From sequence record NC_049815.1: DNA of 51,012 bases, one strand, 5' to 3'. The translations under genes and the position numbers were made by a program. The first letter of the stretch is position 1. Each line of letters opens with the position of its first letter. Source of the stretch: Escherichia phage tonn. Positions 1 through 51,012 of this stretch are shown here, piece after piece. The notes under the pieces are model-generated. The model did no database searches and had not been told where the DNA came from. It worked only from the letters and a program-made list of their open reading frames with translations.

Positions 1-666
1 AAATTCTACCGCGCCATCAAGCTTAATTTTTACTGTCATTTCCTCATCTCCTTTGTCATTTAGAACCTCGTCACTATACGGAAAATCTTGCTCGCTATCA
101 AGATTTAATTTAGCAATGCCAGCACGACCACGAAAGACAAGTGCAATGTGATTAACACGGATATTCGTCTGAATGGCGTCAAATTTAACCCAATCAGGAG
201 AATCAGGCTTCCAGTCTTCTTTAAGGTCTTCCTCAAATAAGTAATCACCAGTTTTATTATTACCCCAGCCTGGCTTGTCAATATCAACCGATGTGTAACC
301 AACTGAAATTTCCGCCGCGTCTTTCTTTTTTGCACTCTCAATTGCTCGCTTTGAGTAAATACTTAACGGAACTTCAACGCCAATCCCATTTGGAACACCA
401 GCGCCAGCACAAGAACCAACTACAACCTTTTCGGCGTTTTCTGGCGTTACCGTGACGTGACCAACCGTGACCGGCTTCCCTGCAAAGGTGGCGAGCGAGT
501 CGGCCTTGAATACTTCTGACGCAGGGCGAAATTCTCGGCGCTCACCGAAAGGAGTCTGATAGACTTGTAAACCAATTCGCGCCACGATAGGGCGATCAAC
601 TAAAAACCCGTTATCATCAAAGTGCGCCTTTACTTTGGCGCTATCAAATCTTTGTTTTGCCTTCAT
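1..666 (-). CDS. putative head maturation protease/scaffold-type head assembly protein, 5' part (ORF runs off the window start)
   Basis: ATG at 666-664 followed by 222 sense codons with no stop down to position 1 (own manual translation); directly downstream of the head morphogenesis gene; frame-continuous with 50581..51012 if window ends are joined. Confidence 0.4.
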   Translation of the reverse strand, partial: MKAKQRFDSAKVKAHFDDNGFLVDRPIVARIGLQVYQTPFGERREFRPASEVFKADSLATFAGKPVTVGHVTVTPENAEKVVVGSCAGAGVPNGIGVEVPLSIYSKRAIESAKKKDAAEISVGYTSVDIDKPGWGNNKTGDYLFEEDLKEDWKPDSPDWVKFDAIQTNIRVNHIALVFRGRAGIAKLNLDSEQDFPYSDEVLNDKGDEEMTVKIKLDGAVEF

Positions 667-12041: not shown

Positions 12042-12063
12042 TTTTAACAAAAAGTGCTATTTA
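12042..12063 (-). promoter_or_regulatory. 21-bp intergenic motif copy with CATAAT 22 bp downstream
   Basis: motif match. Confidence 0.5.
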
Positions 12064-12246
12064 GAATTTGACCTCTTCCACAAGCTCAACCATCTTGTAA
12101 CCAAGACGATAAGAGTCACCGAACAACAAGATCCCCATAAATTCATCGTGGATTATTGACTCCTTGCCAACCGTTCTAAGCTCGCCGTTGTGAATCACAG
12201 TATCGCCGATCTTGATTTCTGACTTATGGACTAGTTTCGTTTTCAT
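12061..12246 (-). CDS. hypothetical protein
   Basis: 61 aa ORF. Confidence 0.45.
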   Translation of the reverse strand: MKTKLVHKSEIKIGDTVIHNGELRTVGKESIIHDEFMGILLFGDSYRLGYKMVELVEEVKF

Positions 12247-12261
12247 CTATTCACCTGCTAA

Positions 12262-12447
12262 TTAAAAGAACGCTACATAGTTTGCAATGCCTTTGGCGTC
12301 ATCGTTTGGCATTGCTTTTACAGCCAGGTCATAACCTGCCTCTACCTTCTGCTTTGCTGTTTCTTCGTTGTAGCCCCAGATAACCAGGATTTTAACTACG
12401 TTTTCTTTGTTCAGGACTTTAAGGTCTTTGGTGATGCGACGTGCCAT
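12262..12447 (-). CDS. hypothetical protein
   Basis: 61 aa ORF. Confidence 0.45.
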   Translation of the reverse strand: MARRITKDLKVLNKENVVKILVIWGYNEETAKQKVEAGYDLAVKAMPNDDAKGIANYVAFF

Positions 12448-12504
12448 TTTTGTTTCCTCAATCTCGTTTCGATGAGGCTATTATGCCAGGCTTTGCGCCT
12501 GGCG

Positions 12505-12526
12505 TTTTAACAAAAAGTGCTATTTT
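12505..12526 (-). promoter_or_regulatory. 21-bp intergenic motif copy with hairpin CCAGGC-n5-GCCTGG and CATAAT
   Basis: motif match; leader contains CATCGAAACGA. Confidence 0.5.
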
Positions 12527-28261: not shown

Positions 28262-28326
28262 GCATTTAAAAATGCTATTATCTGAATTGTCATTGGCAAA
28301 AAGTGCTATTTAGGAGGATTTTACAA

Positions 28327-30321
28327 ATGGCGATTTACAGACAAGGCCAAGCGTCTATGGACGCGCAAGGTTATGTAACTGGTTACGGTACAAAATGGCG
28401 TGAGCAATTAACCTTGATTCGCCCAGGTGCAACTATTTTCTTTCTTTCTCAACCTTTGCAAGCTGCTGTGATTACGGAAGTGATTAGCGATACAAGCATT
28501 CGCGCAATTACTACTGGCGGCGCGGTAGTACAGAAGACAAATTACCTGATCTTGCTTCATGACTCGTTAACGGTTGACGGTCTTGCGCAAGACGTAGCGG
28601 AAACGCTGCGTTATTACCAGGGGAAGGAATCGGAGTTTGCTGGATTTATTGAGATCATCAAGGATTTTGATTGGGATAAGCTACAGAAGATCCAGGAAGA
28701 CGTAAAGACAAATGCTGATGCAGCATCAGCAAGCAAGCAGGCAGCTAAAACCAGCGAGAATAACGCGAAGACAAGCGCAACAAATGCAGCGAATAGCGAG
28801 AAAGGTGCTGATACTGCAAAGGCTGCCGCTGAATCCGCGCGCGACGCTGCAAACACTGCAAAGACTGGAGCTGAAACAGCAAAGTCTGGCGCTGAATCCG
28901 CGCGTGACGCTGCGAACACTGCAAAGGCAGGAGCTGAAAGTGCGCGAGATCAAGCGGAGGAATACGCAAAGCAGGCCGCAGAACCTTACAAAGATTTATT
29001 GCAACCGTTGCCGGACGTGTGGATACCGTTTAATGATTCACTTGATATGATAACTGGTTTTGCGCCTGGGTATAAAAAGATAAAAGTTGGTGATGATGTG
29101 ATCAATATGCCGTCAGATAAAGTTGTAAATTTTAAGCGAGCATCAAAGGCGACATACATTAATAAGTCGGGATTTCTTACTGATGCTGACATTGACGAAC
29201 CGCGTTTTGAACGTGAAGGCTTGCTAATTGAGGGGCAGAGAACAAACCTTCTCATAAATAGTACCAATCCTTCAAAATGGAACAAGTCATCAAACATGGT
29301 GTTAAGCCAATCAGGAGTTGATGATTTCGGTTTTTCATTTGGCAAGTTTACATTAAAGCCAGAAATGGTAGGGAAAACATCGGCTATTAACATAGTTACA
29401 GTATCTGCTAATAAGGGTTTTGATGTTACTGGTGAAGAAAAAAGAGTAACAATCTCATGCAGAGTCAAGGGTGGTGAAGGAAACATAAGATGCAGACTTA
29501 AATTTGAAAGTTATAATGATAGCGGATATACCTTTCTAGGTGGTGCTTATCTCGGTCTTGAGGATTTGTCAATAGAAAAAACCGGCGGCGCTGCAAACAG
29601 GATAACAGCAAGAGCGGTAATGGATGAGTCAAGCAAATGGATATTTTTTGAGGCTACGATCACAGCATTAGAACAGGAAAGCATGATTGGTGCAATGGTG
29701 CAATATGCCCCGCGAAAAGGAGGAAGCACAGAAGTTGATGATTACATATACATCTCAACACCTCAATTGGAAGGTGGTGCGTGCTCGTCGTCATTTATCG
29801 TCACAGAGGGAACTCCTGCGACAAGGGCTAGTGACTTAGTTAATGTCGTGTCATTTAATAATTTAATATCTCACCCGCTTAGTTTTTTGCTTGAGGTAAA
29901 TAAAACATGGACTACCTTACCAAATTCATCGCCGAGGATATGGGATATTGGTGCGCCTGATGTTGGCGAGTCAATGGTATGCTCAATAAGAAGCGATAAA
30001 CATTCAACATACTGGAATATTGCTAGATATGGCGAGTCACCAACCGTATACATTTCCACTGAAATAAAGAATAATTATGATTCTGCTCAGGGAGCAATAA
30101 CAGTTGGCGGAGTATACGACGGGAGTTATGCGTATATCTTTTCAAATTCCGTAAAAGGGAACAAAGCAGAGGTTAAGCATGGTTTTAAGCCAACAACCAG
30201 TAAGATAATAAGATTCGGTGGCGCAGGATCTGATGGTGCTCGTCACTTTTTCGGACACTTAAGAAACTTCCGCATATGGCACAAGACACTAACAGATCAC
30301 CAAATGGGGGAAATTGTATAA
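28327..30321 (+). CDS. tail fibre protein
   Basis: ATG 28327 with AGGAGG RBS; Ala-rich 21-aa tandem repeats typical of fibre shafts; C-terminal beta-rich domain. Confidence 0.8.
   Translation: MAIYRQGQASMDAQGYVTGYGTKWREQLTLIRPGATIFFLSQPLQAAVITEVISDTSIRAITTGGAVVQKTNYLILLHDSLTVDGLAQDVAETLRYYQGKESEFAGFIEIIKDFDWDKLQKIQEDVKTNADAASASKQAAKTSENNAKTSATNAANSEKGADTAKAAAESARDAANTAKTGAETAKSGAESARDAANTAKAGAESARDQAEEYAKQAAEPYKDLLQPLPDVWIPFNDSLDMITGFAPGYKKIKVGDDVINMPSDKVVNFKRASKATYINKSGFLTDADIDEPRFEREGLLIEGQRTNLLINSTNPSKWNKSSNMVLSQSGVDDFGFSFGKFTLKPEMVGKTSAINIVTVSANKGFDVTGEEKRVTISCRVKGGEGNIRCRLKFESYNDSGYTFLGGAYLGLEDLSIEKTGGAANRITARAVMDESSKWIFFEATITALEQESMIGAMVQYAPRKGGSTEVDDYIYISTPQLEGGACSSSFIVTEGTPATRASDLVNVVSFNNLISHPLSFLLEVNKTWTTLPNSSPRIWDIGAPDVGESMVCSIRSDKHSTYWNIARYGESPTVYISTEIKNNYDSAQGAITVGGVYDGSYAYIFSNSVKGNKAEVKHGFKPTTSKIIRFGGAGSDGARHFFGHLRNFRIWHKTLTDHQMGEIV
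28828..28953 (+). repeat. two tandem 63-bp direct repeats inside the tail fibre gene
   Basis: GCTGAATCCGCGCG(C/T)GACGCTGC(A/G)AACACTGCAAAG... repeated at 28828 and 28891. Confidence 0.7.
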
Positions 30322-45298: not shown

Positions 45299-45337
45299 GT
45301 GGAATTAATTTATTTGATAGATTGATTTTACAGGAAT

Positions 45338-45366
45338 GAAAAAAGGGGCGCAACGCCCCTTGTTTT
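45338..45366. terminator. rho-independent terminator immediately after major tail protein gene
   Basis: GGGGCG-caa-CGCCCC flanked by A7 and TTGTTTT. Confidence 0.6.
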
Positions 45367-46027
45367 ACTTAACGTCGGAAGGTAAGAACGTGAATCGGCC
45401 TTTCAGAGATACAGAAAGGGAAACAGTTTCCATTTCGTTCATAGTTGTTTGCGGAATGTCATTAAAAGACAATACGCCAGCCCAGCAACGCATCTCTTTA
45501 GCTTTCGGCACGTACATACGCAAAGCGGTTACGTCGCCGGATTCCTCAGCCTCGCGCAAGATCGGATAAATCGGATTATCATATTCATGCGCGAAAGTAT
45601 AGGTAAGAGAAACGGCGCTCTTGTAGGTCGGCAACTGCTGTTCCTGGTCATCAGCCAAACACTGATAAGTGTAATACTGTTGCTCGCCGCCGTCCTGCGC
45701 AAGATCCTGTACGCAAGGAACCTCTACCCAAGATTTCACCTCTCGGAAAGTTGCTGTATTAGAACCAGCCGGAAATACGTTTTGATCGATTGTGTCTACA
45801 CCTTCAAGAGTTACGCTTGCGTTATCAGATACTTCTTTTACCCGCAACACACGACTAACCAGTTTACCCCAGGAAGACGTTTCAATCAGAACATAAGCAC
45901 CTTTTTTGATCTGCTGTGAATTACTAACAGTAAAAACCGGATCTTTAGCGTTTGAAATATCAGTAGCGCTAATTGGCTCACCCATATTAACGCCGATGAA
46001 AATTTGAGAACCATTAGGCAAGTGCAT
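45365..46027 (-). CDS. major tail protein
   Basis: 220 aa; upstream of G/GT chaperone and followed by terminator, the usual arrangement for the abundant tail tube protein. Confidence 0.65.
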   Translation of the reverse strand: MHLPNGSQIFIGVNMGEPISATDISNAKDPVFTVSNSQQIKKGAYVLIETSSWGKLVSRVLRVKEVSDNASVTLEGVDTIDQNVFPAGSNTATFREVKSWVEVPCVQDLAQDGGEQQYYTYQCLADDQEQQLPTYKSAVSLTYTFAHEYDNPIYPILREAEESGDVTALRMYVPKAKEMRCWAGVLSFNDIPQTTMNEMETVSLSVSLKGRFTFLPSDVK

Positions 46028-46029
46028 GA

Positions 46030-46464
46030 TTATTCCTCCTTTGTGTCAAGCCTAACACTGAAACGGATCGGTAAGAACCAACCTGTTTCACTTTTTAGTA
46101 ATGTGTGGACCTTTGCCCCATCGCTAATATAGCCAGTTTCAAACATTCTACCATCATAGAAAAATCTCGCAATCTCTTTAGCCAGCAAACGCGCTTTATC
46201 AGTGCCGCCGCCAGGAGGCATAACAATTCCAACCTGAACCAATCCGATATAAGAAACGCATTTTCTATCAAGAGATATGCGATCTGTGTCGGCTTCCATG
46301 TATTCAAATTTTAACCACATCGAACCATCACCAGGCGGAACAAAATCAACGTTTTCATAGGCGATCTTGAATCGTGATTCATATTCCGCCGCCAGCGCCT
46401 TACGCGCCGATAGCATTAATTCATAGTGACTCATGTTGAACTCCGTGATTTTTGTGGTATCCAA
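46030..46464 (-). CDS. tail terminator / tail completion protein (putative; start probably internal)
   Basis: position immediately upstream of major tail gene. Confidence 0.45.
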   Translation of the reverse strand: MDTTKITEFNMSHYELMLSARKALAAEYESRFKIAYENVDFVPPGDGSMWLKFEYMEADTDRISLDRKCVSYIGLVQVGIVMPPGGGTDKARLLAKEIARFFYDGRMFETGYISDGAKVHTLLKSETGWFLPIRFSVRLDTKEE

Positions 46465-46930
46465 AATTTAATTCTGCATCTTTTCTTGCTTTAGCAGCCT
46501 CATCAAAGCTAACAAAGAAACCTAAGTGCAACCTCTTTTTGTTGTGCATTATTTGAGCGTACCATTTCTTGTTTTTTCGATGATAGTAAACACCGGTAAC
46601 TCCGCTTGAGTTTCTTTTGTCGATTGTTTTGTTTCTCATGTTTCCAGATCTATCAACAATCCTTAGATTCTCAATTCTGTTGTCAGTTGTGTCGTGATTA
46701 ATATGGTCAATCTCCATGCCGTCAGGAATTGGCCCGTTGTGCATCTCCCAAACTATGCGATGAACCCTAAACTGACCGCCAAACATATTAACAACAACGT
46801 ATCCGCGATTATTTACATTTCCAGCTACGTCGCCAACAGAACAAGGATACTTACATTTTGACTGATCTTTAATCTGAATCTTCCAGTAAATAAGTCCATC
46901 TTTGTATGTGAATATATCATCATAGTGCAT
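46421..46930 (-). CDS. HNH homing endonuclease with AP2-like DNA-binding domain
   Basis: HNH block IDHINHDTTDNRIENLRIV...N, and YYHRKNKKWYAQI...LGFF AP2-like block; overlaps both neighbours. Confidence 0.8.
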   Translation of the reverse strand: MHYDDIFTYKDGLIYWKIQIKDQSKCKYPCSVGDVAGNVNNRGYVVVNMFGGQFRVHRIVWEMHNGPIPDGMEIDHINHDTTDNRIENLRIVDRSGNMRNKTIDKRNSSGVTGVYYHRKNKKWYAQIMHNKKRLHLGFFVSFDEAAKARKDAELNFGYHKNHGVQHESL

Positions 46931-47363
46931 TTTTATCCCTCGACTCTTTTATTGCTTCAGCCATATAAGATCTCAACTTAACCGCGACAATCCCAAGCAC
47001 ACCCGCTGGCGCTTGTTTTGAATGACCGTACTCAAGTACGTTAGCGTAAATAAGCATATTTGAAAAATAAATGGCCCTTACTGCGCCGCCACCTCGTAAC
47101 ATTGCGTATATAGCTCGCTTACCTTCCGCGATCGTTTTGTCGCCGTGCTTATCGTACTGGTTAAGCGCATACAATGGCGGCTTGTTTGCTGTTACCTGCC
47201 AGTTTGCACGGTAACGACCAGTATCAACCGGAGAACGCTTAACAAGGTCTGTATGCACTTTTTCGGCGAATAACTCCACGCAATCCTTTAGTCCACTATC
47301 AACGGCGTTTATCCACGCATCAATGTTGCCGTGAAATTCCCTTATCGTATAGTTTTTAGCCAT
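46920..47363 (-). CDS. head-tail joining / tail completion protein (putative)
   Basis: 147 aa; position in connector module. Confidence 0.45.
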   Translation of the reverse strand: MAKNYTIREFHGNIDAWINAVDSGLKDCVELFAEKVHTDLVKRSPVDTGRYRANWQVTANKPPLYALNQYDKHGDKTIAEGKRAIYAMLRGGGAVRAIYFSNMLIYANVLEYGHSKQAPAGVLGIVAVKLRSYMAEAIKESRDKNAL

Positions 47364-47733
47364 GCACAGAAATCCTTCTCAAAATAGGCCGATAAGCAAC
47401 TGTGACATTGGTTTGTCTGATTGGTCTTGCTTCAACTACAACATATAATTCACCATCAACATCAATATGATACCCGTTCTTAATTTCAACTTTATTGTTA
47501 AAAGCTCCCAACTTATCAGTTACTCGTATTGTTTCTCCGTCAACCTCGCGTACTTTTGGTGAGCGAATTAAACCCTTAATCATTACACTGATCTCTGGCT
47601 TTTCTACTTCTTCGCCTCCGATGATTTCAACGCTTCCACGCTGCGTTATGCACTTAAACTCACCGTTGCCATCACTAAAGAAGTTAATTCCTTCAGTTGC
47701 CATTCTTGCGATCTCGTTATAGTTCATTTGCAA
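47356..47733 (-). CDS. head-tail connector protein (putative)
   Basis: 125 aa; overlapping neighbours in connector module. Confidence 0.45.
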
Positions 47734-48140
47734 CGCCTCCTAAATCCAGTCACAAGACCAAATCCACCGCCTTTCTTACGATTTAGCGTTTCGTACATTT
47801 TCCCCCAGGGAGTTTGTCTAATATCTTTTCCGCCAGAGTCGCCTGACACTCGATCAAAAGTCTGGCTAAATTCACCAGTCAGTGAAAATGACGCAACTCG
47901 CCGCGAGTAACTTTCTACGCTTTCCCCTTCTTGCTTCATGGCTCCATCAAGCGTCATAAGGTGCAACGTATAAAGAGCAACCGCTTTAGGATATGACTCT
48001 TTAAACCGCTTCTTGCAAACAAATTCCTTTGCAAGCTCAATCCATGACACCATTAAATCTGGATCAATCTGCTTCATCGGTGGCGCTAATTTCACGATTT
48101 GCTGCGTGATTTCTGCGTCAGTGAAAAATTCATCAACCAT
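47724..48140 (-). CDS. head-tail connector protein (putative)
   Basis: 138 aa. Confidence 0.45.
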
Positions 48141-48187
48141 TGTGTTTCCTCCAGATATGACAAAGGGCGCTTATAGCGCCCTCTTTA

Positions 48188-48460
48188 TTAATAGATGCCG
48201 CCGTCTTCAAGTTCGGCTTTGCTCTTGCCCTCTCGCGGGTCTTTTTTACGTTTGCTTGCTGCGCTCTGTTTGATTTCTTCGTTCAATGCGGAGTTATCTT
48301 TAACCTCCAGATCGCCTTTTGCAATTAGATATTCAAACGCGCTTGTTTTCAATTTTGATTCTTCTACGTCAAACTCTTTGCCTGGATGATAATGCTCACC
48401 ATCAACAATAATAAGGCATACGCCGGAAACCTTTAGCGTTACAGTTTTTTCTTTAGCCAT
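48188..48460 (-). CDS. hypothetical structural protein
   Basis: 90 aa; between major capsid terminator and connector genes. Confidence 0.45.
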   Translation of the reverse strand: MAKEKTVTLKVSGVCLIIVDGEHYHPGKEFDVEESKLKTSAFEYLIAKGDLEVKDNSALNEEIKQSAASKRKKDPREGKSKAELEDGGIY

Positions 48461-48474
48461 TTTATAACCTCCAA

Positions 48475-48503
48475 TAAAAAAGGGAATCCAGTTAAGGATT
48501 CCC
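48475..48503 (-). terminator. rho-independent terminator after major capsid gene
   Basis: GGGAATCC-agttaa-GGATTCCC followed by T6 on the - strand. Confidence 0.55.
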
Positions 48504-48516
48504 CAATGTTATACGA

Positions 48517-49491
48517 TTAACTTGATTTTTTCAAGCCAGTAATAAGCACTAGCGTAAACGGACGGTAAATCGTCAGGCCAGTACATTTTGAAGTGCAGGG
48601 AACTTTGAAATGCAGATCTTTTGGTTGCGCCGGAAGCATGTTAAATGCTTCTGGAATTTCGATCGACATGTTCATCGGGTCTTTCTCATATACCAGACAG
48701 CCTTTCGTTCCTGTGCCGTCAATATCCTCAAGCTCTGCGATCGAGTCAATGGCGATTCCGCTGTTTTGTTTCTGGAAGTATTCCAGATAACTTTCAGTGG
48801 TGTTTTCCATTCGAACGGAAAGAACCTTGCGCATAGACGGCGGAATCAGGATATTGGTTGCGCGGTGCTGACCATTGGTAATGGTCTGAATGGTTTCAAT
48901 AGCCTTTTCCAGTTCATCAGATGCCGCCTGTGGGAACTTGGTGTTTTCATCAGCGCTTAACCAGCCAGCTGACGTAATTTTTGTCAGGTTAGGATGTTCA
49001 AACACCGAAAGAATCTTATGCGGCTTTGAACCCTTAAACACCAGGCGGTTAACTTCCTGATCATGAGCGTTTTGCGCTGCGTTTGCCTTGCGAGTGGAAA
49101 GGCTCTTACCAGTACGCTGACCAGACTTGATTTCGTCAATTGAGATCAAGAACGCGTTACCCAAGCGGAAAACTTTACCGAATTCGCTAGACATCAGCGC
49201 GTCAACGGTCGGCAGGTCGTCGGTGTAATCAGCGATAATTTTTGCGTAACCAACTTTGTCAAACATCTGATATTCAAAAGTCTTATCAGTATCAGAAAGC
49301 TCATTAGTTACAGGGAATACACGAAGCGCAGAACCTGCCGGATATTCTTTCTCGTAAGCATCAGAGCGAATCTTATGCAGTTCTTTAGCGGCCCAAATAC
49401 CCATGTCGTACGCATCACCTTTAACGCCGCGAGTAGCCAGATAGCTAGAAACAATATCCGCATCTAGCTGATCAAATTTTTCTTTTTCCAT
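48517..49491 (-). CDS. major capsid protein
   Basis: 325 aa from ATG 49491 (GGAGGAAGAAA RBS); position after two small head genes; followed by terminator. Confidence 0.65.
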   Translation of the reverse strand: MEKEKFDQLDADIVSSYLATRGVKGDAYDMGIWAAKELHKIRSDAYEKEYPAGSALRVFPVTNELSDTDKTFEYQMFDKVGYAKIIADYTDDLPTVDALMSSEFGKVFRLGNAFLISIDEIKSGQRTGKSLSTRKANAAQNAHDQEVNRLVFKGSKPHKILSVFEHPNLTKITSAGWLSADENTKFPQAASDELEKAIETIQTITNGQHRATNILIPPSMRKVLSVRMENTTESYLEYFQKQNSGIAIDSIAELEDIDGTGTKGCLVYEKDPMNMSIEIPEAFNMLPAQPKDLHFKVPCTSKCTGLTIYRPFTLVLITGLKKSS

Positions 49492-49536
49492 TTTCTTCCT
49501 CCATATATAAAGGCTGTTAGTATGTAACGCCACAAT

Positions 49537-49555
49537 GATAGCATTTTTTGTTAAA
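49537..49555 (+). promoter_or_regulatory. degenerate 21-bp motif copy in antisense orientation upstream of major capsid gene
   Basis: GATAGCATTTTTTGTTAAA on + strand. Confidence 0.3.
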
Positions 49556-49574
49556 CGTGCAACATAATTTTGTG

Positions 49575-50021
49575 TTATGCGTTAATGCTTACCCCGACAA
49601 TATATGAATCATGATCAACCTTTACATGTTCGCCAGTAAAGATCCAACCAATCAGCAAGTCGCCTTCACTGTATGCTGCATCTCCATCTTGCGTTACAAA
49701 TACTTTGTCTCCATATTCTGGCGCTTCGCTCTCAGAAGTTAAGCACCACACAATACCTCGACTAACAACACTAACTGGATCGCCATCCTCATATATGCAC
49801 GAGCCCAGCGGCCTTACTGCCACGCCAATAACAAGATCCCCATTAATACTGGCTATTTTGTATCCATTTGTTATATGTGATAGTCGAACAATCTTACCTG
49901 GCGCAATAAATTCATCTCCGCACACGAAAGAACCGTTAATCACCATTATTGAAGAATCGACCATGCACCCTGGCGACTCAGCGCCAACAATGACTGAATA
50001 ATCACTCATAAGAAACTCCAA
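49575..50021 (-). CDS. head structural protein (paralog of 50056..50568; decoration-like?)
   Basis: shares GVAV, G.VW.L..E..AP.(F/Y)G.K and W(I)(A/F)TG blocks with upstream gene. Confidence 0.5.
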   Translation of the reverse strand: MEFLMSDYSVIVGAESPGCMVDSSIMVINGSFVCGDEFIAPGKIVRLSHITNGYKIASINGDLVIGVAVRPLGSCIYEDGDPVSVVSRGIVWCLTSESEAPEYGDKVFVTQDGDAAYSEGDLLIGWIFTGEHVKVDHDSYIVGVSINA

Positions 50022-50025
50022 ATAT

Positions 50026-50048
50026 AAAAAAGGCGCTCAGTGAGCGCC
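50026..50048 (-). terminator. terminator-like hairpin GGCGCTC-agt-GAGCGCC followed by T-run on - strand
   Basis: between the two paralogous head genes. Confidence 0.45.
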
Positions 50049-50055
50049 ATATTTA

Positions 50056-50568
50056 TTAACCTGCTGAAGATGCAGGAACTTTTTGCACCTGAACCTCTAC
50101 CAGCTTCAAGTCTTGAAACTTGGTAAAGTCACCAGTTGCGATCCAGTTTGTTTCGATAGTGCCAGACCCGGTATCAACCTGACCATCATCAGACAGTTTG
50201 ATTTTAGTGCCGAACGCTGGCGCGGTGGCGTCTTCAGCCAACATCCAAACACGCCCTTCAGTCATTACGTTGATTCCGCCGCCAGATTCATAAATCATTC
50301 GGCCGTCAGACGAAGTTGTCTGAAAGTGAGATCGAATTGCAACGCCGTAAGCCTTGCCGCTTGCCGCCATCGGCTTAATTAGCTTATTGCCCATAGCATC
50401 AACGCCGCCATGCTGGACTGCAACACCAACAAAAATGTTTTTGTTCTGGTTGCCTTGCGCATTCTCAAGAACACAAGCGCCATCAATATTATAAGCTGAA
50501 GTGTCAGAAACCTGACCAGGTAACGCACGAGACATTACAGCAAAATAACTTGCTCCAATTGTAGCCAT
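50056..50568 (-). CDS. head structural protein (paralog of 49575..50021)
   Basis: 170 aa; see paralog blocks above. Confidence 0.55.
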   Translation of the reverse strand: MATIGASYFAVMSRALPGQVSDTSAYNIDGACVLENAQGNQNKNIFVGVAVQHGGVDAMGNKLIKPMAASGKAYGVAIRSHFQTTSSDGRMIYESGGGINVMTEGRVWMLAEDATAPAFGTKIKLSDDGQVDTGSGTIETNWIATGDFTKFQDLKLVEVQVQKVPASSAG

Positions 50569-50580
50569 GTTTATTTCTCC

Positions 50581-51012
50581 TTATTTAAGTTTTTTCAAAC
50601 GCGCAGTCGGATCAAGGGAGTCGGTTTTTTCACTCTTGCCAGATTCGAAAGAATCGCCCTTAACAGATTTACGCTGCGCCGCCATTTTATCAGACTGCTT
50701 CGCAAGGTCAAAAGCTGTTTCAATATATGCATCGGCTTTTTCTGAAATATCGGCGCCGGTGACTTCTTTGACGTAAGCAACTTTGATCGCTTTGGCGTCC
50801 AAGCCGTCACACTTGATGCCAATTTCAGTTGCATCTGCAACCAGCTTGGCGTGTTCTTCTGCGTCAGTCTTTGCCTTCTTAACAGCTTCTGCAATCTGCT
50901 CCGGAATGCCATCGACTTTAGTTTTCAGGGCGTCGCGCTCGGCCTCAAGGCCATCAGCTTTTTCGGTTGCAGCTTTTGCATCTGCCTTTAACGCCTCAAT
51001 ATGATCAGCAAC
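50581..51012 (-). CDS. scaffold-like head protein, 3' part (ORF enters from beyond the window end)
   Basis: frame open from 51012 to stop at 50581 (144 codons); Ala/Lys/Glu/Asp-rich helical composition typical of scaffolding proteins. Confidence 0.5.
   Translation of the reverse strand, partial: VADHIEALKADAKAATEKADGLEAERDALKTKVDGIPEQIAEAVKKAKTDAEEHAKLVADATEIGIKCDGLDAKAIKVAYVKEVTGADISEKADAYIETAFDLAKQSDKMAAQRKSVKGDSFESGKSEKTDSLDPTARLKKLK

What the first reader, a model, noticed from the sequence alone, without database searches (positions are those of the whole stretch)
46421..46930. HNH-AP2 homing endonuclease inserted between tail completion genes
A 169-aa HNH endonuclease with an AP2-like DNA-binding domain sits within the otherwise conserved connector/tail module and overlaps both neighbours (11 nt upstream, up to 44 nt downstream). 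This is typical of a free-standing homing endonuclease insertion and is likely variable among relatives.
Basis: partly seen in the sequence, partly recalled or inferred. Interest (0 to 1): 0.45.

Follow-up and report, generated by a model that had tools for sequence, protein, structure and literature searches.

The report
Mobile HNH-AP2 homing endonuclease gene
A small selfish nuclease gene sits between two tail-assembly genes of this T1-like coliphage, and it appears to have arrived from a phage of another genus together with about 4.5 kb of head genes; the kind of element is already known.

Summary
ORF 46421..46930 (-) encodes 169 aa with an I-HmuI-like N-terminal region and HNH_3 nuclease, followed by an AP2-fold DNA-binding domain. 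It is an exact 499-bp insertion between the tail-completion and tail-terminator genes. About 146 related GenBank phages and 8 IMG/VR contigs have the uninterrupted site. Only four GenBank phages (BEK7, BEK1-23, BEC3, BEK12B) and at least 23 metagenome contigs carry it.

The insert is spliced into the 11-nt gene overlap. It uses the terminator's own ATG and ribosome-binding site, re-creates a GGAG-ATG start for the terminator, and duplicates 8 nt (CACTATGA) that supplies its stop codon.

The window is a Warwickvirus genome, 98-100% identical to EC195, probably phage tonn. The exception is a ~5-kb Hanrivervirus-type patch. One edge lies 27-40 nt past the HNH gene; the other lies ~4.5 kb upstream in the head protease gene.

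Among nine carriers the insert differs by 0.29%, against 5.6% in the adjacent gene. An 80%-identical ortholog occupies the same site in a Tls-like phage (dN/dS 0.07).

Verdict: a free-standing homing endonuclease of the known HNH-AP2 ("IPA-HNH") class, already annotated as such in the BEK phages. The natural record of cross-genus transfer is a useful detail. Cleavage activity and target site are untested.

The parts
46421..46930 (-). HNH-AP2 homing endonuclease ORF, 169 aa. Residues 1-54 form an I-HmuI-like N-terminal beta region, 55-100 the HNH_3 nuclease motif, and about 105-160 the AP2-fold DNA-binding domain.
46429..46927 (-). The 499-bp insert relative to empty-site phages. The boundary is ambiguous by 8 nt because of the flanking CACTATGA repeat. 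GC is 37.7% against 44.5% for the genome.
   Evidence: Alignments with PGN590, vojen, EC195 and swan01; GC content.
46920..46927 (-). Upstream copy of the 8-nt direct repeat CACTATGA. It contains the tail-completion stop codon TGA and HNH codons 2-3.
46421..46428 (-). Downstream copy of CACTATGA. It contains the HNH stop codon TGA and lies within terminator codons 3-5 (His, Tyr and the first two bases of Glu).
46429..46445 (-). Re-created translation start for the tail terminator at the 3' end of the insert: GGAG, then 7 nt, then ATG plus one extra Ser codon.
   Evidence: Sequence. The Tls-like ortholog L055 has the same arrangement, with Gly in place of Ser.
46920..47363 (-). Tail completion / Neck1 gene (HK97 gp10-like), the upstream neighbour. 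It is Hanrivervirus-type.
46030..46434 (-). Tail terminator gene, the downstream neighbour. Its first ~30-40 nt are Hanrivervirus-type and the rest is Warwickvirus-type.
46389..46402 (.). Near recombination breakpoint. The last Hanrivervirus-specific base is about 46402 and the first Warwickvirus-specific base about 46389. It lies within a shared AAGGCGCTGGCG block, 27-40 nt downstream of the insertion point.
46403..51012 (.). Main part of the Hanrivervirus-derived patch: HNH, tail completion, head closure, adaptor, DUF7444, major capsid, two cement/decoration genes and the 3' part of the protease/scaffold gene. It is 95-100% identical to BEK12B and to carrier contigs, but only 65-82% identical to EC195.
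1..412 (.). Remainder of the patch across the permuted genome end. The far breakpoint lies between diagnostic sites 394 (Hanrivervirus-type) and 412 (Warwickvirus-type), inside the head protease/scaffold gene.

Best explanation
This is a free-standing homing endonuclease gene (HEG) of the HNH_3 + AP2 class. Shown: the protein has an I-HmuI-like N-terminal region and HNH motif with the catalytic-type residues conserved, plus a C-terminal AP2 fold. The gene is a 499-bp cassette placed exactly in the 11-nt overlap between the tail-completion and tail-terminator genes. It borrows the terminator's ATG and ribosome-binding site, and supplies a new GGAG-ATG start for the terminator, so the coupled late operon stays intact. 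Most relatives lack it. Carriers share a nearly identical copy in diverged backgrounds. In this genome it lies at the edge of a ~5-kb tract of foreign (Hanrivervirus) DNA inside an otherwise Warwickvirus genome. Inferred: during co-infection the enzyme, made late with the structural genes, nicks or cuts the uninterrupted site of a HEG-less phage near AAAAATG|CACTATGA. The AP2 domain may anchor on the GC-rich stretch just downstream. The break is repaired by recombination with the HEG-carrying genome. That copies the HEG in together with flanking donor DNA: here about 30 nt on the tail side and about 4.5 kb of connector/head genes on the other. The insertion itself splits the site, which would protect carriers. 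An I-HmuI-type single-strand nick converted to a one-ended break at a replication fork would account for the strongly one-sided tract. This last step is speculation.
For: Domains and fold:
- Pfam HNH_3 4.8e-22 and PHROG 99 1.4e-65.
- The family profile matches I-HmuI (1u3e) over its residues 1-104, E=1.1e-7, aligning the family's VHR...IDH...NRIENL...N..N motif with I-HmuI's VHR...VDH...NLSTNL...N..N.
- AF2 model pLDDT 86.7. Foldseek top hit is I-HmuI, then AP2 domains.
- H57, D75, N88 and N100 are invariant and H76, N84 and N97 are at least 90% conserved in 52 homologs.

Insertion anatomy:
- Exact 499-bp indel with an 8-nt flanking repeat.
- The N-terminus MHY is taken from the terminator (family consensus is MNW), and the 5-aa C-terminal extension is encoded by the junction.

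Polymorphism:
- 4 filled against about 146 empty GenBank relatives; 8 empty and 0 filled in IMG/VR.
- At least 23 metagenome contigs carry the identical protein. All 10 distinct places shown have it at this site.

Mobility:
- Insert diversity is 0.29%, against 5.6% in the adjacent tail-completion gene, among 9 carriers.
- GC 37.7% against 44.5%, in the lowest 1.8% of windows.
- Homologs of 40-53% identity occupy many other sites in T1-like phages, including terS|terL, morphogenesis|protease, helicase and tail J|I.
- An 80% ortholog sits at the same site in a Tls-like phage, with dN/dS 0.07.

Cross-genus transfer:
- The window is 98-100% identical to EC195 over about 45.5 kb, but 95-100% identical to Hanrivervirus carriers from about 46400 through 51012 and 1 to about 400. 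Breakpoints are at 46389-46402 and 394-412.

Precedent:
- HNH-AP2 'IPA-HNH' HEGs at exchange boundaries (PMC10448857).
- Recombinogenic nicks by HNH HEGs with flank co-conversion (PMC2790892; PMC3428280).
Against: - No cleavage or nicking activity, target site or strand has been measured. All mechanistic steps after 'the gene is there and moves' are inferred.
- The ~4.5-kb one-sided tract is longer than the ~2-kb maximum reported for T4 homing (PMC2790892). It may therefore reflect an ordinary second crossover rather than resection or co-conversion.
- Only one Warwickvirus-background carrier (this window) was seen, so the breakpoint coincidence rests on a single event. My rough estimate of it arising by chance is about 2% for a 5-kb patch that happens to contain the gene.
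- AP2 falls below Pfam's gathering score on this single sequence.
- Near-identity of the insert among carriers could partly reflect recent common ancestry of that segment, followed by recombination in the flanks.
Confidence: 0.85

Rival explanations
1. Passive cargo. The gene encodes an HNH-AP2 protein, but it reached this genome by ordinary homologous recombination between co-infecting T1-like phages. A 5-kb head-module swap happened to include it, with no break made by the enzyme. The enzyme may be inactive or serve another purpose.
For: T1-like phages are highly mosaic and encode their own exonuclease/recombinase pair (EC195 annotation). The tract is longer than typical T4 co-conversion. 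Only one such recombinant was observed.
Against: One breakpoint lies 27-40 nt from the insertion point. The insert shows a sharp diversity trough relative to its immediate flank, 0.29% against 5.6%. The tail-completion gene of this window is closer to HNH-less vojen/PGN590 (95-98%) than to HNH+ BEK12B (91-94%), so the gene and its flank have different histories. Catalytic-type residues are conserved, and dN/dS of 0.07 argues for a working protein.
Confidence: 0.1
2. Packaging-associated HNH, like HK97 gp74. On this view the nuclease is an accessory factor that stimulates terminase cleavage, and so is a functional part of the morphogenesis module rather than a selfish element.
For: It lies in the structural/late gene block, and HNH proteins are common near phage packaging genes (PMC3592412 abstract).
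Against: It is about 7 kb from the terminase genes, between tail-completion and terminator. It is absent from about 97% of close relatives, which package normally. It belongs to the I-HmuI-like HNH_3 family with an AP2 domain, not to the zinc-ribbon/CxxC type described for cos-site HNH proteins in PMC3592412. Its homologs are scattered over unrelated sites.
Confidence: 0.02
3. Domesticated DNA-binding regulator or inter-phage weapon. The AP2 domain binds phage DNA to regulate expression, or the protein mainly serves to damage competitors, with gene mobility being incidental.
For: HEG DNA-binding domains have been co-opted as regulators, and plant AP2 factors derive from such HEGs (PMC10448857 discussion). 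Flank inheritance gives a competitive benefit to linked head genes.
Against: A pure regulator would not need the conserved nuclease residues. The presence/absence pattern and the precise cassette are those of a mobile gene. The 'weapon' reading is a consequence of homing, not a true alternative to it.
Confidence: 0.03

Closest known systems
IPA-HNH homing endonucleases: HNH_3 + C-terminal AP2 (Barth, Dunham & Seed 2023, PMC10448857), the class that paper traces to an earlier report (its ref. 45)
   Same: Same domain order, N-terminal HNH_3 then C-terminal AP2. Free-standing, next to essential structural genes, variable among close relatives, and located at a boundary of genetic exchange between phages.
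   Different: That paper reports enrichment in ICP1, Barbaviruses and Flaumdraviruses. This copy is in Tempevirinae (T1-like) coliphages, at a site not described there. Only one edge of the exchanged module is marked by a HEG, rather than a HEG-bracketed island.
I-HmuI (phage SPO1; PDB 1u3e) and relatives I-HmuII, I-BasI and I-PfoP3I
   Same: The family profile matches I-HmuI residues 1-104 (E=1.1e-7), covering the N-terminal beta region and the HNH motif including the D-H pair. I-HmuI is also the best structural match. These enzymes nick one strand and still drive homing with inheritance of flanking markers.
   Different: I-HmuI is encoded in a group I intron in a DNA polymerase gene, and its C-terminal DNA-binding part is different. 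Here the gene is free-standing, with an AP2 domain in its place. Whether it nicks or makes a double-strand cut is unknown.
T4 MobE and other free-standing HNH 'mob' endonucleases (PMC2790892)
   Same: A free-standing, promoterless HNH gene that depends on upstream transcription, lies between essential genes, and drives co-conversion of flanking DNA into a related phage. No promoter excess was found around this gene.
   Different: The DNA-binding domain and host phage family differ. T4 tracts reach at most about 2 kb, against about 4.5 kb here.
'Homing endonuclease' CDS QGH77406.1 of Escherichia phage BEK12B, with BEK7, BEK1-23 and BEC3
   Same: 99.4% identical protein at the same site with the same junctions. 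It is already annotated as a homing endonuclease in GenBank.
   Different: Those phages are Hanriverviruses throughout. This window carries the gene in a Warwickvirus backbone.

Membership tests
HNH (His-Me finger) nuclease, HNH_3 / I-HmuI-like subgroup | Significant match to the family model above the curated threshold | tested here: met
   Pfam PF13392 scores 77.8 bits against a cut-off of 24.8. The profile matches 1u3e at E=1.1e-7.
HNH (His-Me finger) nuclease, HNH_3 / I-HmuI-like subgroup | Conserved catalytic-type residues: the D-H pair, the structural Asn, and the distal metal-binding Asn | tested here: met
   D75-H76, N84/N88 and N97/N100 are present, and are invariant or at least 90% conserved in 52 homologs. 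The D-H pair aligns with the D-H of I-HmuI. That the I-HmuI pair is residues D74/H75, and what role each residue plays, comes from my own knowledge of the I-HmuI structure paper and was not checked here.
HNH (His-Me finger) nuclease, HNH_3 / I-HmuI-like subgroup | beta-beta-alpha-metal fold | tested here: met
   The AF2 model has pLDDT above 90 over residues 40-100, with strands 72-76 and 89-93 and helix 94-98. The best PDB match is I-HmuI.
AP2/ERF-type DNA-binding domain | Match to Pfam AP2 above the gathering score | tested here: not met
   22.9 bits against 33.3 for this sequence. Several homologs do carry a precomputed PF00847 hit.
AP2/ERF-type DNA-binding domain | Three-stranded sheet packed on a C-terminal helix (AP2 fold) | tested here: met
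   Strands 114-117, 122-129 and 132-139 with helix 142-156. Foldseek gives TEM1, WRI1 and AtERF1 AP2 domains at probability 0.99-1.0. The profile matches WRI1 at E=0.0014.
Free-standing homing endonuclease gene | Presence/absence polymorphism at one fixed site with precise boundaries | tested here: met
   A 499-bp indel with identical junctions in all carriers examined. Empty sites are found in about 146 GenBank and 8 IMG/VR relatives.
Free-standing homing endonuclease gene | A history of the gene that differs from that of its flanks (horizontal spread) | tested here: met
   Diversity of 0.29% against 5.6%. Transfer into a Warwickvirus backbone. Low GC.
Free-standing homing endonuclease gene | Co-conversion of flanking donor sequence starting at the insertion or cleavage site | tested here: inconclusive
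   The donor tract starts 27-40 nt beyond the insert and runs about 4.5 kb the other way. This is a single natural event and cannot be distinguished from an unrelated crossover with certainty.
Free-standing homing endonuclease gene | Site-specific cleavage or nicking of the HEG-less allele, with immunity of the HEG-containing allele | not testable with these tools
   Needs enzyme assays or in-vivo break mapping.
Terminase-associated packaging HNH (HK97 gp74-like) | Adjacent to terminase/cos and conserved in all relatives | tested here: not met
   Located between the tail-completion and terminator genes, and absent from most relatives.

The most novel reading that the evidence does not exclude
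The gene records a natural homing event across genus boundaries. A Hanrivervirus HNH-AP2 enzyme, perhaps a nickase like I-HmuI, broke a Warwickvirus genome at the tail-completion/terminator junction. Repair dragged in a whole 4.5-kb capsid/connector module on one side only, producing a viable chimeric virion with a Hanrivervirus head and connector on a Warwickvirus portal, terminase and tail. If this is general, such HEGs would be a main driver of module-scale mosaicism in T1-like phages, and one-sided tracts would be the signature of nick-initiated, fork-dependent repair.
Probability: 0.35. Interest if true: 0.6.

Novelty: new member of a known kind. Interest (0 to 1): 0.35.

Why it matters
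The element itself is ordinary. HNH-AP2 homing endonucleases are a described class, and this gene is already labelled 'homing endonuclease' in four GenBank phages.

The value lies in the detail. The donor type, the recipient type (EC195/swan01-like) and the recombinant are all available as sequences, with both breakpoints mapped to within 20 nt. This is a clean natural example of a HEG sitting at the boundary of a module exchange between two ICTV genera.

It offers a tractable coliphage system for three questions: whether HNH-AP2 enzymes nick or cut, how long co-conversion tracts run between 75-80% identical genomes, and whether HEGs decide which head alleles win in mixed infections. It also shows how a HEG can be spliced into a translationally coupled gene overlap without disturbing either neighbour.

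Tried and rejected
- A single-sequence search of PDB sequences gave only chance matches to coronavirus spike and neuraminidase, E of 0.02 or worse. The family profile was needed to reach I-HmuI and AP2.
- tblastn of the protein against the window found no paralog, so this genome carries one copy of the family.
- IMG/VR held no close relative, with a best match of 57%.
- The one IMG/VR match to the 'filled junction' pattern (L081) has no HNH and is a chance match.
- A first MAFFT-based identity profile against BEK12B understated identity in the tail region and suggested a simple 'HNH 99% against flanks 89%' picture. BLAST-based profiles with Warwickvirus references showed the real structure, a genus-level chimera.
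- Promoter-like sites in 45300-48600 are no more frequent than in shuffles, 7 against 7.3. There is thus no evidence for a private promoter. The only convincing terminator-like hairpins on the coding strand lie outside the block, at 48504-48481 and 45361-45343.
- Target-site duplication by a transposase was considered for the 8-nt repeat. It was rejected as the primary reading because there is no transposase and there are no terminal inverted repeats. The repeat coincides exactly with the stop/start overlap that both junctions need to keep. Microhomology-mediated first insertion remains possible.
- The packaging-HNH role was rejected on position and distribution.

Full report
**1. The observation**

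The minus-strand ORF 46421..46930 (ATG start, 169 aa) exists as described. It overlaps the upstream gene 46920..47363 by 11 nt.

The listed downstream ORF starts at TTG 46464, which would give a 44-nt overlap. An ATG at 46434 preceded by GGAG is the start supported by relatives. Carriers call a 133-aa product, and the empty allele begins MHYELM. The real overlap is therefore 14 nt.

The upstream neighbour is a tail-completion/Neck1 protein (PHROG 169, 2.9e-52; HK97 gp10-like). The downstream neighbour is the tail terminator (Pfam Phage_tail_terminator_5, 8.4e-22), followed by the major tail tube protein.

**2. The protein**

- Pfam gives HNH_3 at 4.8e-22 (residues 55-99) and AP2 at 1.1e-4. The AP2 score of 22.9 bits is below the gathering score of 33.3.
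- PHROG 99 'HNH endonuclease' scores 1.4e-65 over residues 4-167.
- A search of about 5.8 billion proteins found 252 homologs with E of 1e-10 or better, several with precomputed HNH_3 + AP2 hits.
- In an alignment of 52 of them, H57, D75, N88 and N100 are invariant, and H76, N84 and N97 are at least 90% conserved.
- The family profile matches the solved homing endonuclease I-HmuI (1u3e) over its residues 1-104 at E=1.1e-7. It aligns VHR...IDH...NRIENL...N..N with I-HmuI's VHR...VDH...NLSTNL...N..N. It also matches the AP2 domains of WRI1 (0.0014) and TEM1 (0.047).
- An AlphaFold2 model (pLDDT 86.7) finds I-HmuI as the best PDB match, followed by TEM1, WRI1 and AtERF1 AP2 domains at probability 0.99-1.0.

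The protein is therefore an I-HmuI-like N-terminal region and nuclease fused to an AP2 fold. This architecture is named IPA-HNH by Barth et al. 2023 and was previously noted as a HEG family in protists, cyanobacteria and phages (PMC10448857).

**3. Anatomy of the insertion**

Empty-site phages of two genera read ...GAGGGC(T/A)AAAAATG|CACTATGA(A/T)TTAATG... These are the Hanriverviruses PGN590 and vojen and the Warwickviruses EC195 and swan01. In them the terminator ATG lies 8 nt before the tail-completion stop, forming the overlap ATGCACTATGA.

In the window, 499 bp sit at the bar. The consequences are read directly from the sequence:

- The HNH ORF starts at the terminator's original ATG and ribosome-binding site. 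Its first three residues, MHY, are the terminator's, whereas the family consensus begins MNW.
- The 3' end of the insert carries GGAGTTCAAC-ATG-AGT. This gives the terminator a new ribosome-binding site, a new start and one extra Ser.
- The 8 nt CACTATGA are present at both ends (46920-46927 and 46421-46428). The HNH ORF therefore ends at a copy of the same TGA that ends the tail-completion gene, and the stop/start coupling is rebuilt as ATGAGTCACTATGA.
- The last five HNH residues, QHESL, are encoded by this junction. Homologs end at about residue 163-164.

The insert has 37.7% GC against 44.5% for the genome, in the lowest 1.8% of 499-nt windows. No excess of promoter-like sites surrounds it. 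It is probably expressed as part of the late operon.

**4. Distribution**

- In GenBank phages, four near-identical Belgian Hanriverviruses (BEK7, BEK1-23, BEC3, BEK12B) have the gene at this site. It is 99.4% identical at the protein level and annotated 'homing endonuclease'.
- About 146 records at 80-90% flank identity show the two flanks joined, about 350 nt against the 851-nt query. That is the empty site.
- IMG/VR has 8 exact empty sites and no filled one. The single pattern match, L081, is chance.
- The identical protein is on at least 23 metagenome contigs. All 10 distinct places shown across searches have it between the 147-aa and 133-aa genes, in Hanrivervirus-type backgrounds (tape-measure protein of 967-970 aa).
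- An 80%-identical, 169-aa ortholog sits at the same site in a contig whose closest HNH-less relatives are Tls-like phages. It has the same MHY fusion and an extra Gly codon in the terminator. dN/dS between the two orthologs is 0.07, so the protein is under purifying selection.
- Homologs at 40-53% identity occupy many other sites in related phages: terS|terL, head morphogenesis|protease, next to the helicase, tail J|I, and next to the exonuclease. None is at this site.
- The window has no second copy of the family.

**5. Evidence of movement**

*Diversity.* Among nine carriers, mean pairwise divergence is 0.29% in the insert. It is 5.6% in the adjacent tail-completion gene and 1.7% in the terminator. 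The window's tail-completion gene is closer to HNH-less vojen and PGN590 (95-98%) than to HNH+ BEK12B (91-94%).

*A genus-level chimera.* The window is 98-100% identical to the Warwickviruses EC195 and swan01 over about 45.5 kb. From about 46400 through 51012, and on through 1 to about 400, it is only 65-82% identical to them. Over that stretch it is 95-100% identical to Hanrivervirus carriers.

*The breakpoints.* Diagnostic sites place the near breakpoint between 46402 and 46389, inside a shared AAGGCGCTGGCG block, 27-40 nt downstream of the insertion point. The far breakpoint lies between 394 and 412, in the head protease/scaffold gene.

An EC195-like Warwickvirus has thus received the HNH gene plus about 4.5 kb of Hanrivervirus connector and capsid genes on one side and about 30 nt on the other. 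I estimate roughly a 2% chance that an edge of a random 5-kb patch containing the gene would fall this close to it. This is a rough calculation, not a tool result.

**6. Mechanism**

*Shown.* The gene is a mobile, selectively maintained nuclease gene that sits at a recombination boundary.

*Inferred.* The enzyme nicks or cuts the empty site in a co-infecting phage, and recombinational repair copies the gene and donor flanks. Carriers would be protected because the site is split.

*Precedent.*
- T4 MobE makes a recombinogenic strand-specific nick and co-converts flanks, with tracts of up to about 2 kb in T4 (PMC3428280; PMC2790892).
- HEGs at boundaries of exchanged modules are described in PMC10448857.

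*Open points.* The tract here is longer than in T4 and strongly one-sided. A nick converted to a one-ended break at a fork would explain that, but this is speculation. An ordinary second crossover is equally possible.

**7. Rivals**

- Passive carriage by ordinary recombination cannot be fully excluded (0.10).
- A packaging role like HK97 gp74 is contradicted by position, distribution and family (0.02).
- A purely regulatory AP2 protein is contradicted by the conserved nuclease residues (0.03).

**8. Novelty**

This is a new member of a known kind. The gene is already annotated as a homing endonuclease in the BEK phages, and the class is described. The added value is the seamless operon splice and the well-resolved cross-genus transfer.

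The window's length (51,012 bp) and GC content (44.5%) equal those tabulated for Escherichia phage tonn (MN850596, Warwickvirus) in PMC7552041. It is probably that genome. This was not verified by sequence.

Noticed in passing
window 1-51012: The length of 51,012 bp and GC of 44.5% match the values tabulated for Escherichia phage tonn (MN850596, Warwickvirus) in PMC7552041. The record appears circularly permuted and opens inside the head protease/scaffold gene. It was not among the hits in the phage collection searched.
   Followed up: partly
window 12061-12509: Two 61-aa ORFs (12061..12246 and 12262..12447, minus strand) lie in a ~450-nt segment that is absent from EC195, although the flanks are 95-98% identical. 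This is a small accessory-gene indel of unknown function.
   Followed up: partly
window ~29000-30250: The C-terminal part of the 672-aa side-tail-fibre ORF (28303..30321, plus strand) is only 72-76% identical to EC195, inside a genome that is otherwise 98-100% identical. This is probably a receptor-binding-domain swap.
   Followed up: no
window 394-412 and the gene spanning 51012/1: The far edge of the Hanrivervirus patch falls inside the 370-aa head protease/scaffold gene (Pa193_gp24-like). That protein is therefore a Warwickvirus/Hanrivervirus chimera. The portal and terminase are Warwickvirus-type, while the capsid, cement and connector proteins are Hanrivervirus-type.
   Followed up: partly
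L063-L070 (Hanrivervirus metagenome contigs); BEK12B (L009): Carriers of this HEG have further variable HNH_3 genes at other sites: terS|terL in L064, terL|portal in L063, L068 and L069, and after tail gene I in L070. BEK12B has four CDS annotated 'homing endonuclease'. HEG load varies greatly among near-identical phages.
   Followed up: no
L003 (Shigella phage 2019SD1, NC_049820): The connector region of this record aligns in five pieces, with shifted and odd-length CDS (for example a 194-aa 'tail completion' protein). One IMG/VR copy of its empty site has one A fewer in the A-run. This suggests frameshift-type sequencing errors in that 'UNVERIFIED_ASMBLY' record rather than biology.
   Followed up: no
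L055 8280-8768 (minus strand): The Tls-like contig carrying the 80% ortholog has a second, oppositely oriented HNH_3 gene (162 aa) between the tail-chaperone genes and the tape-measure gene.
   Followed up: no
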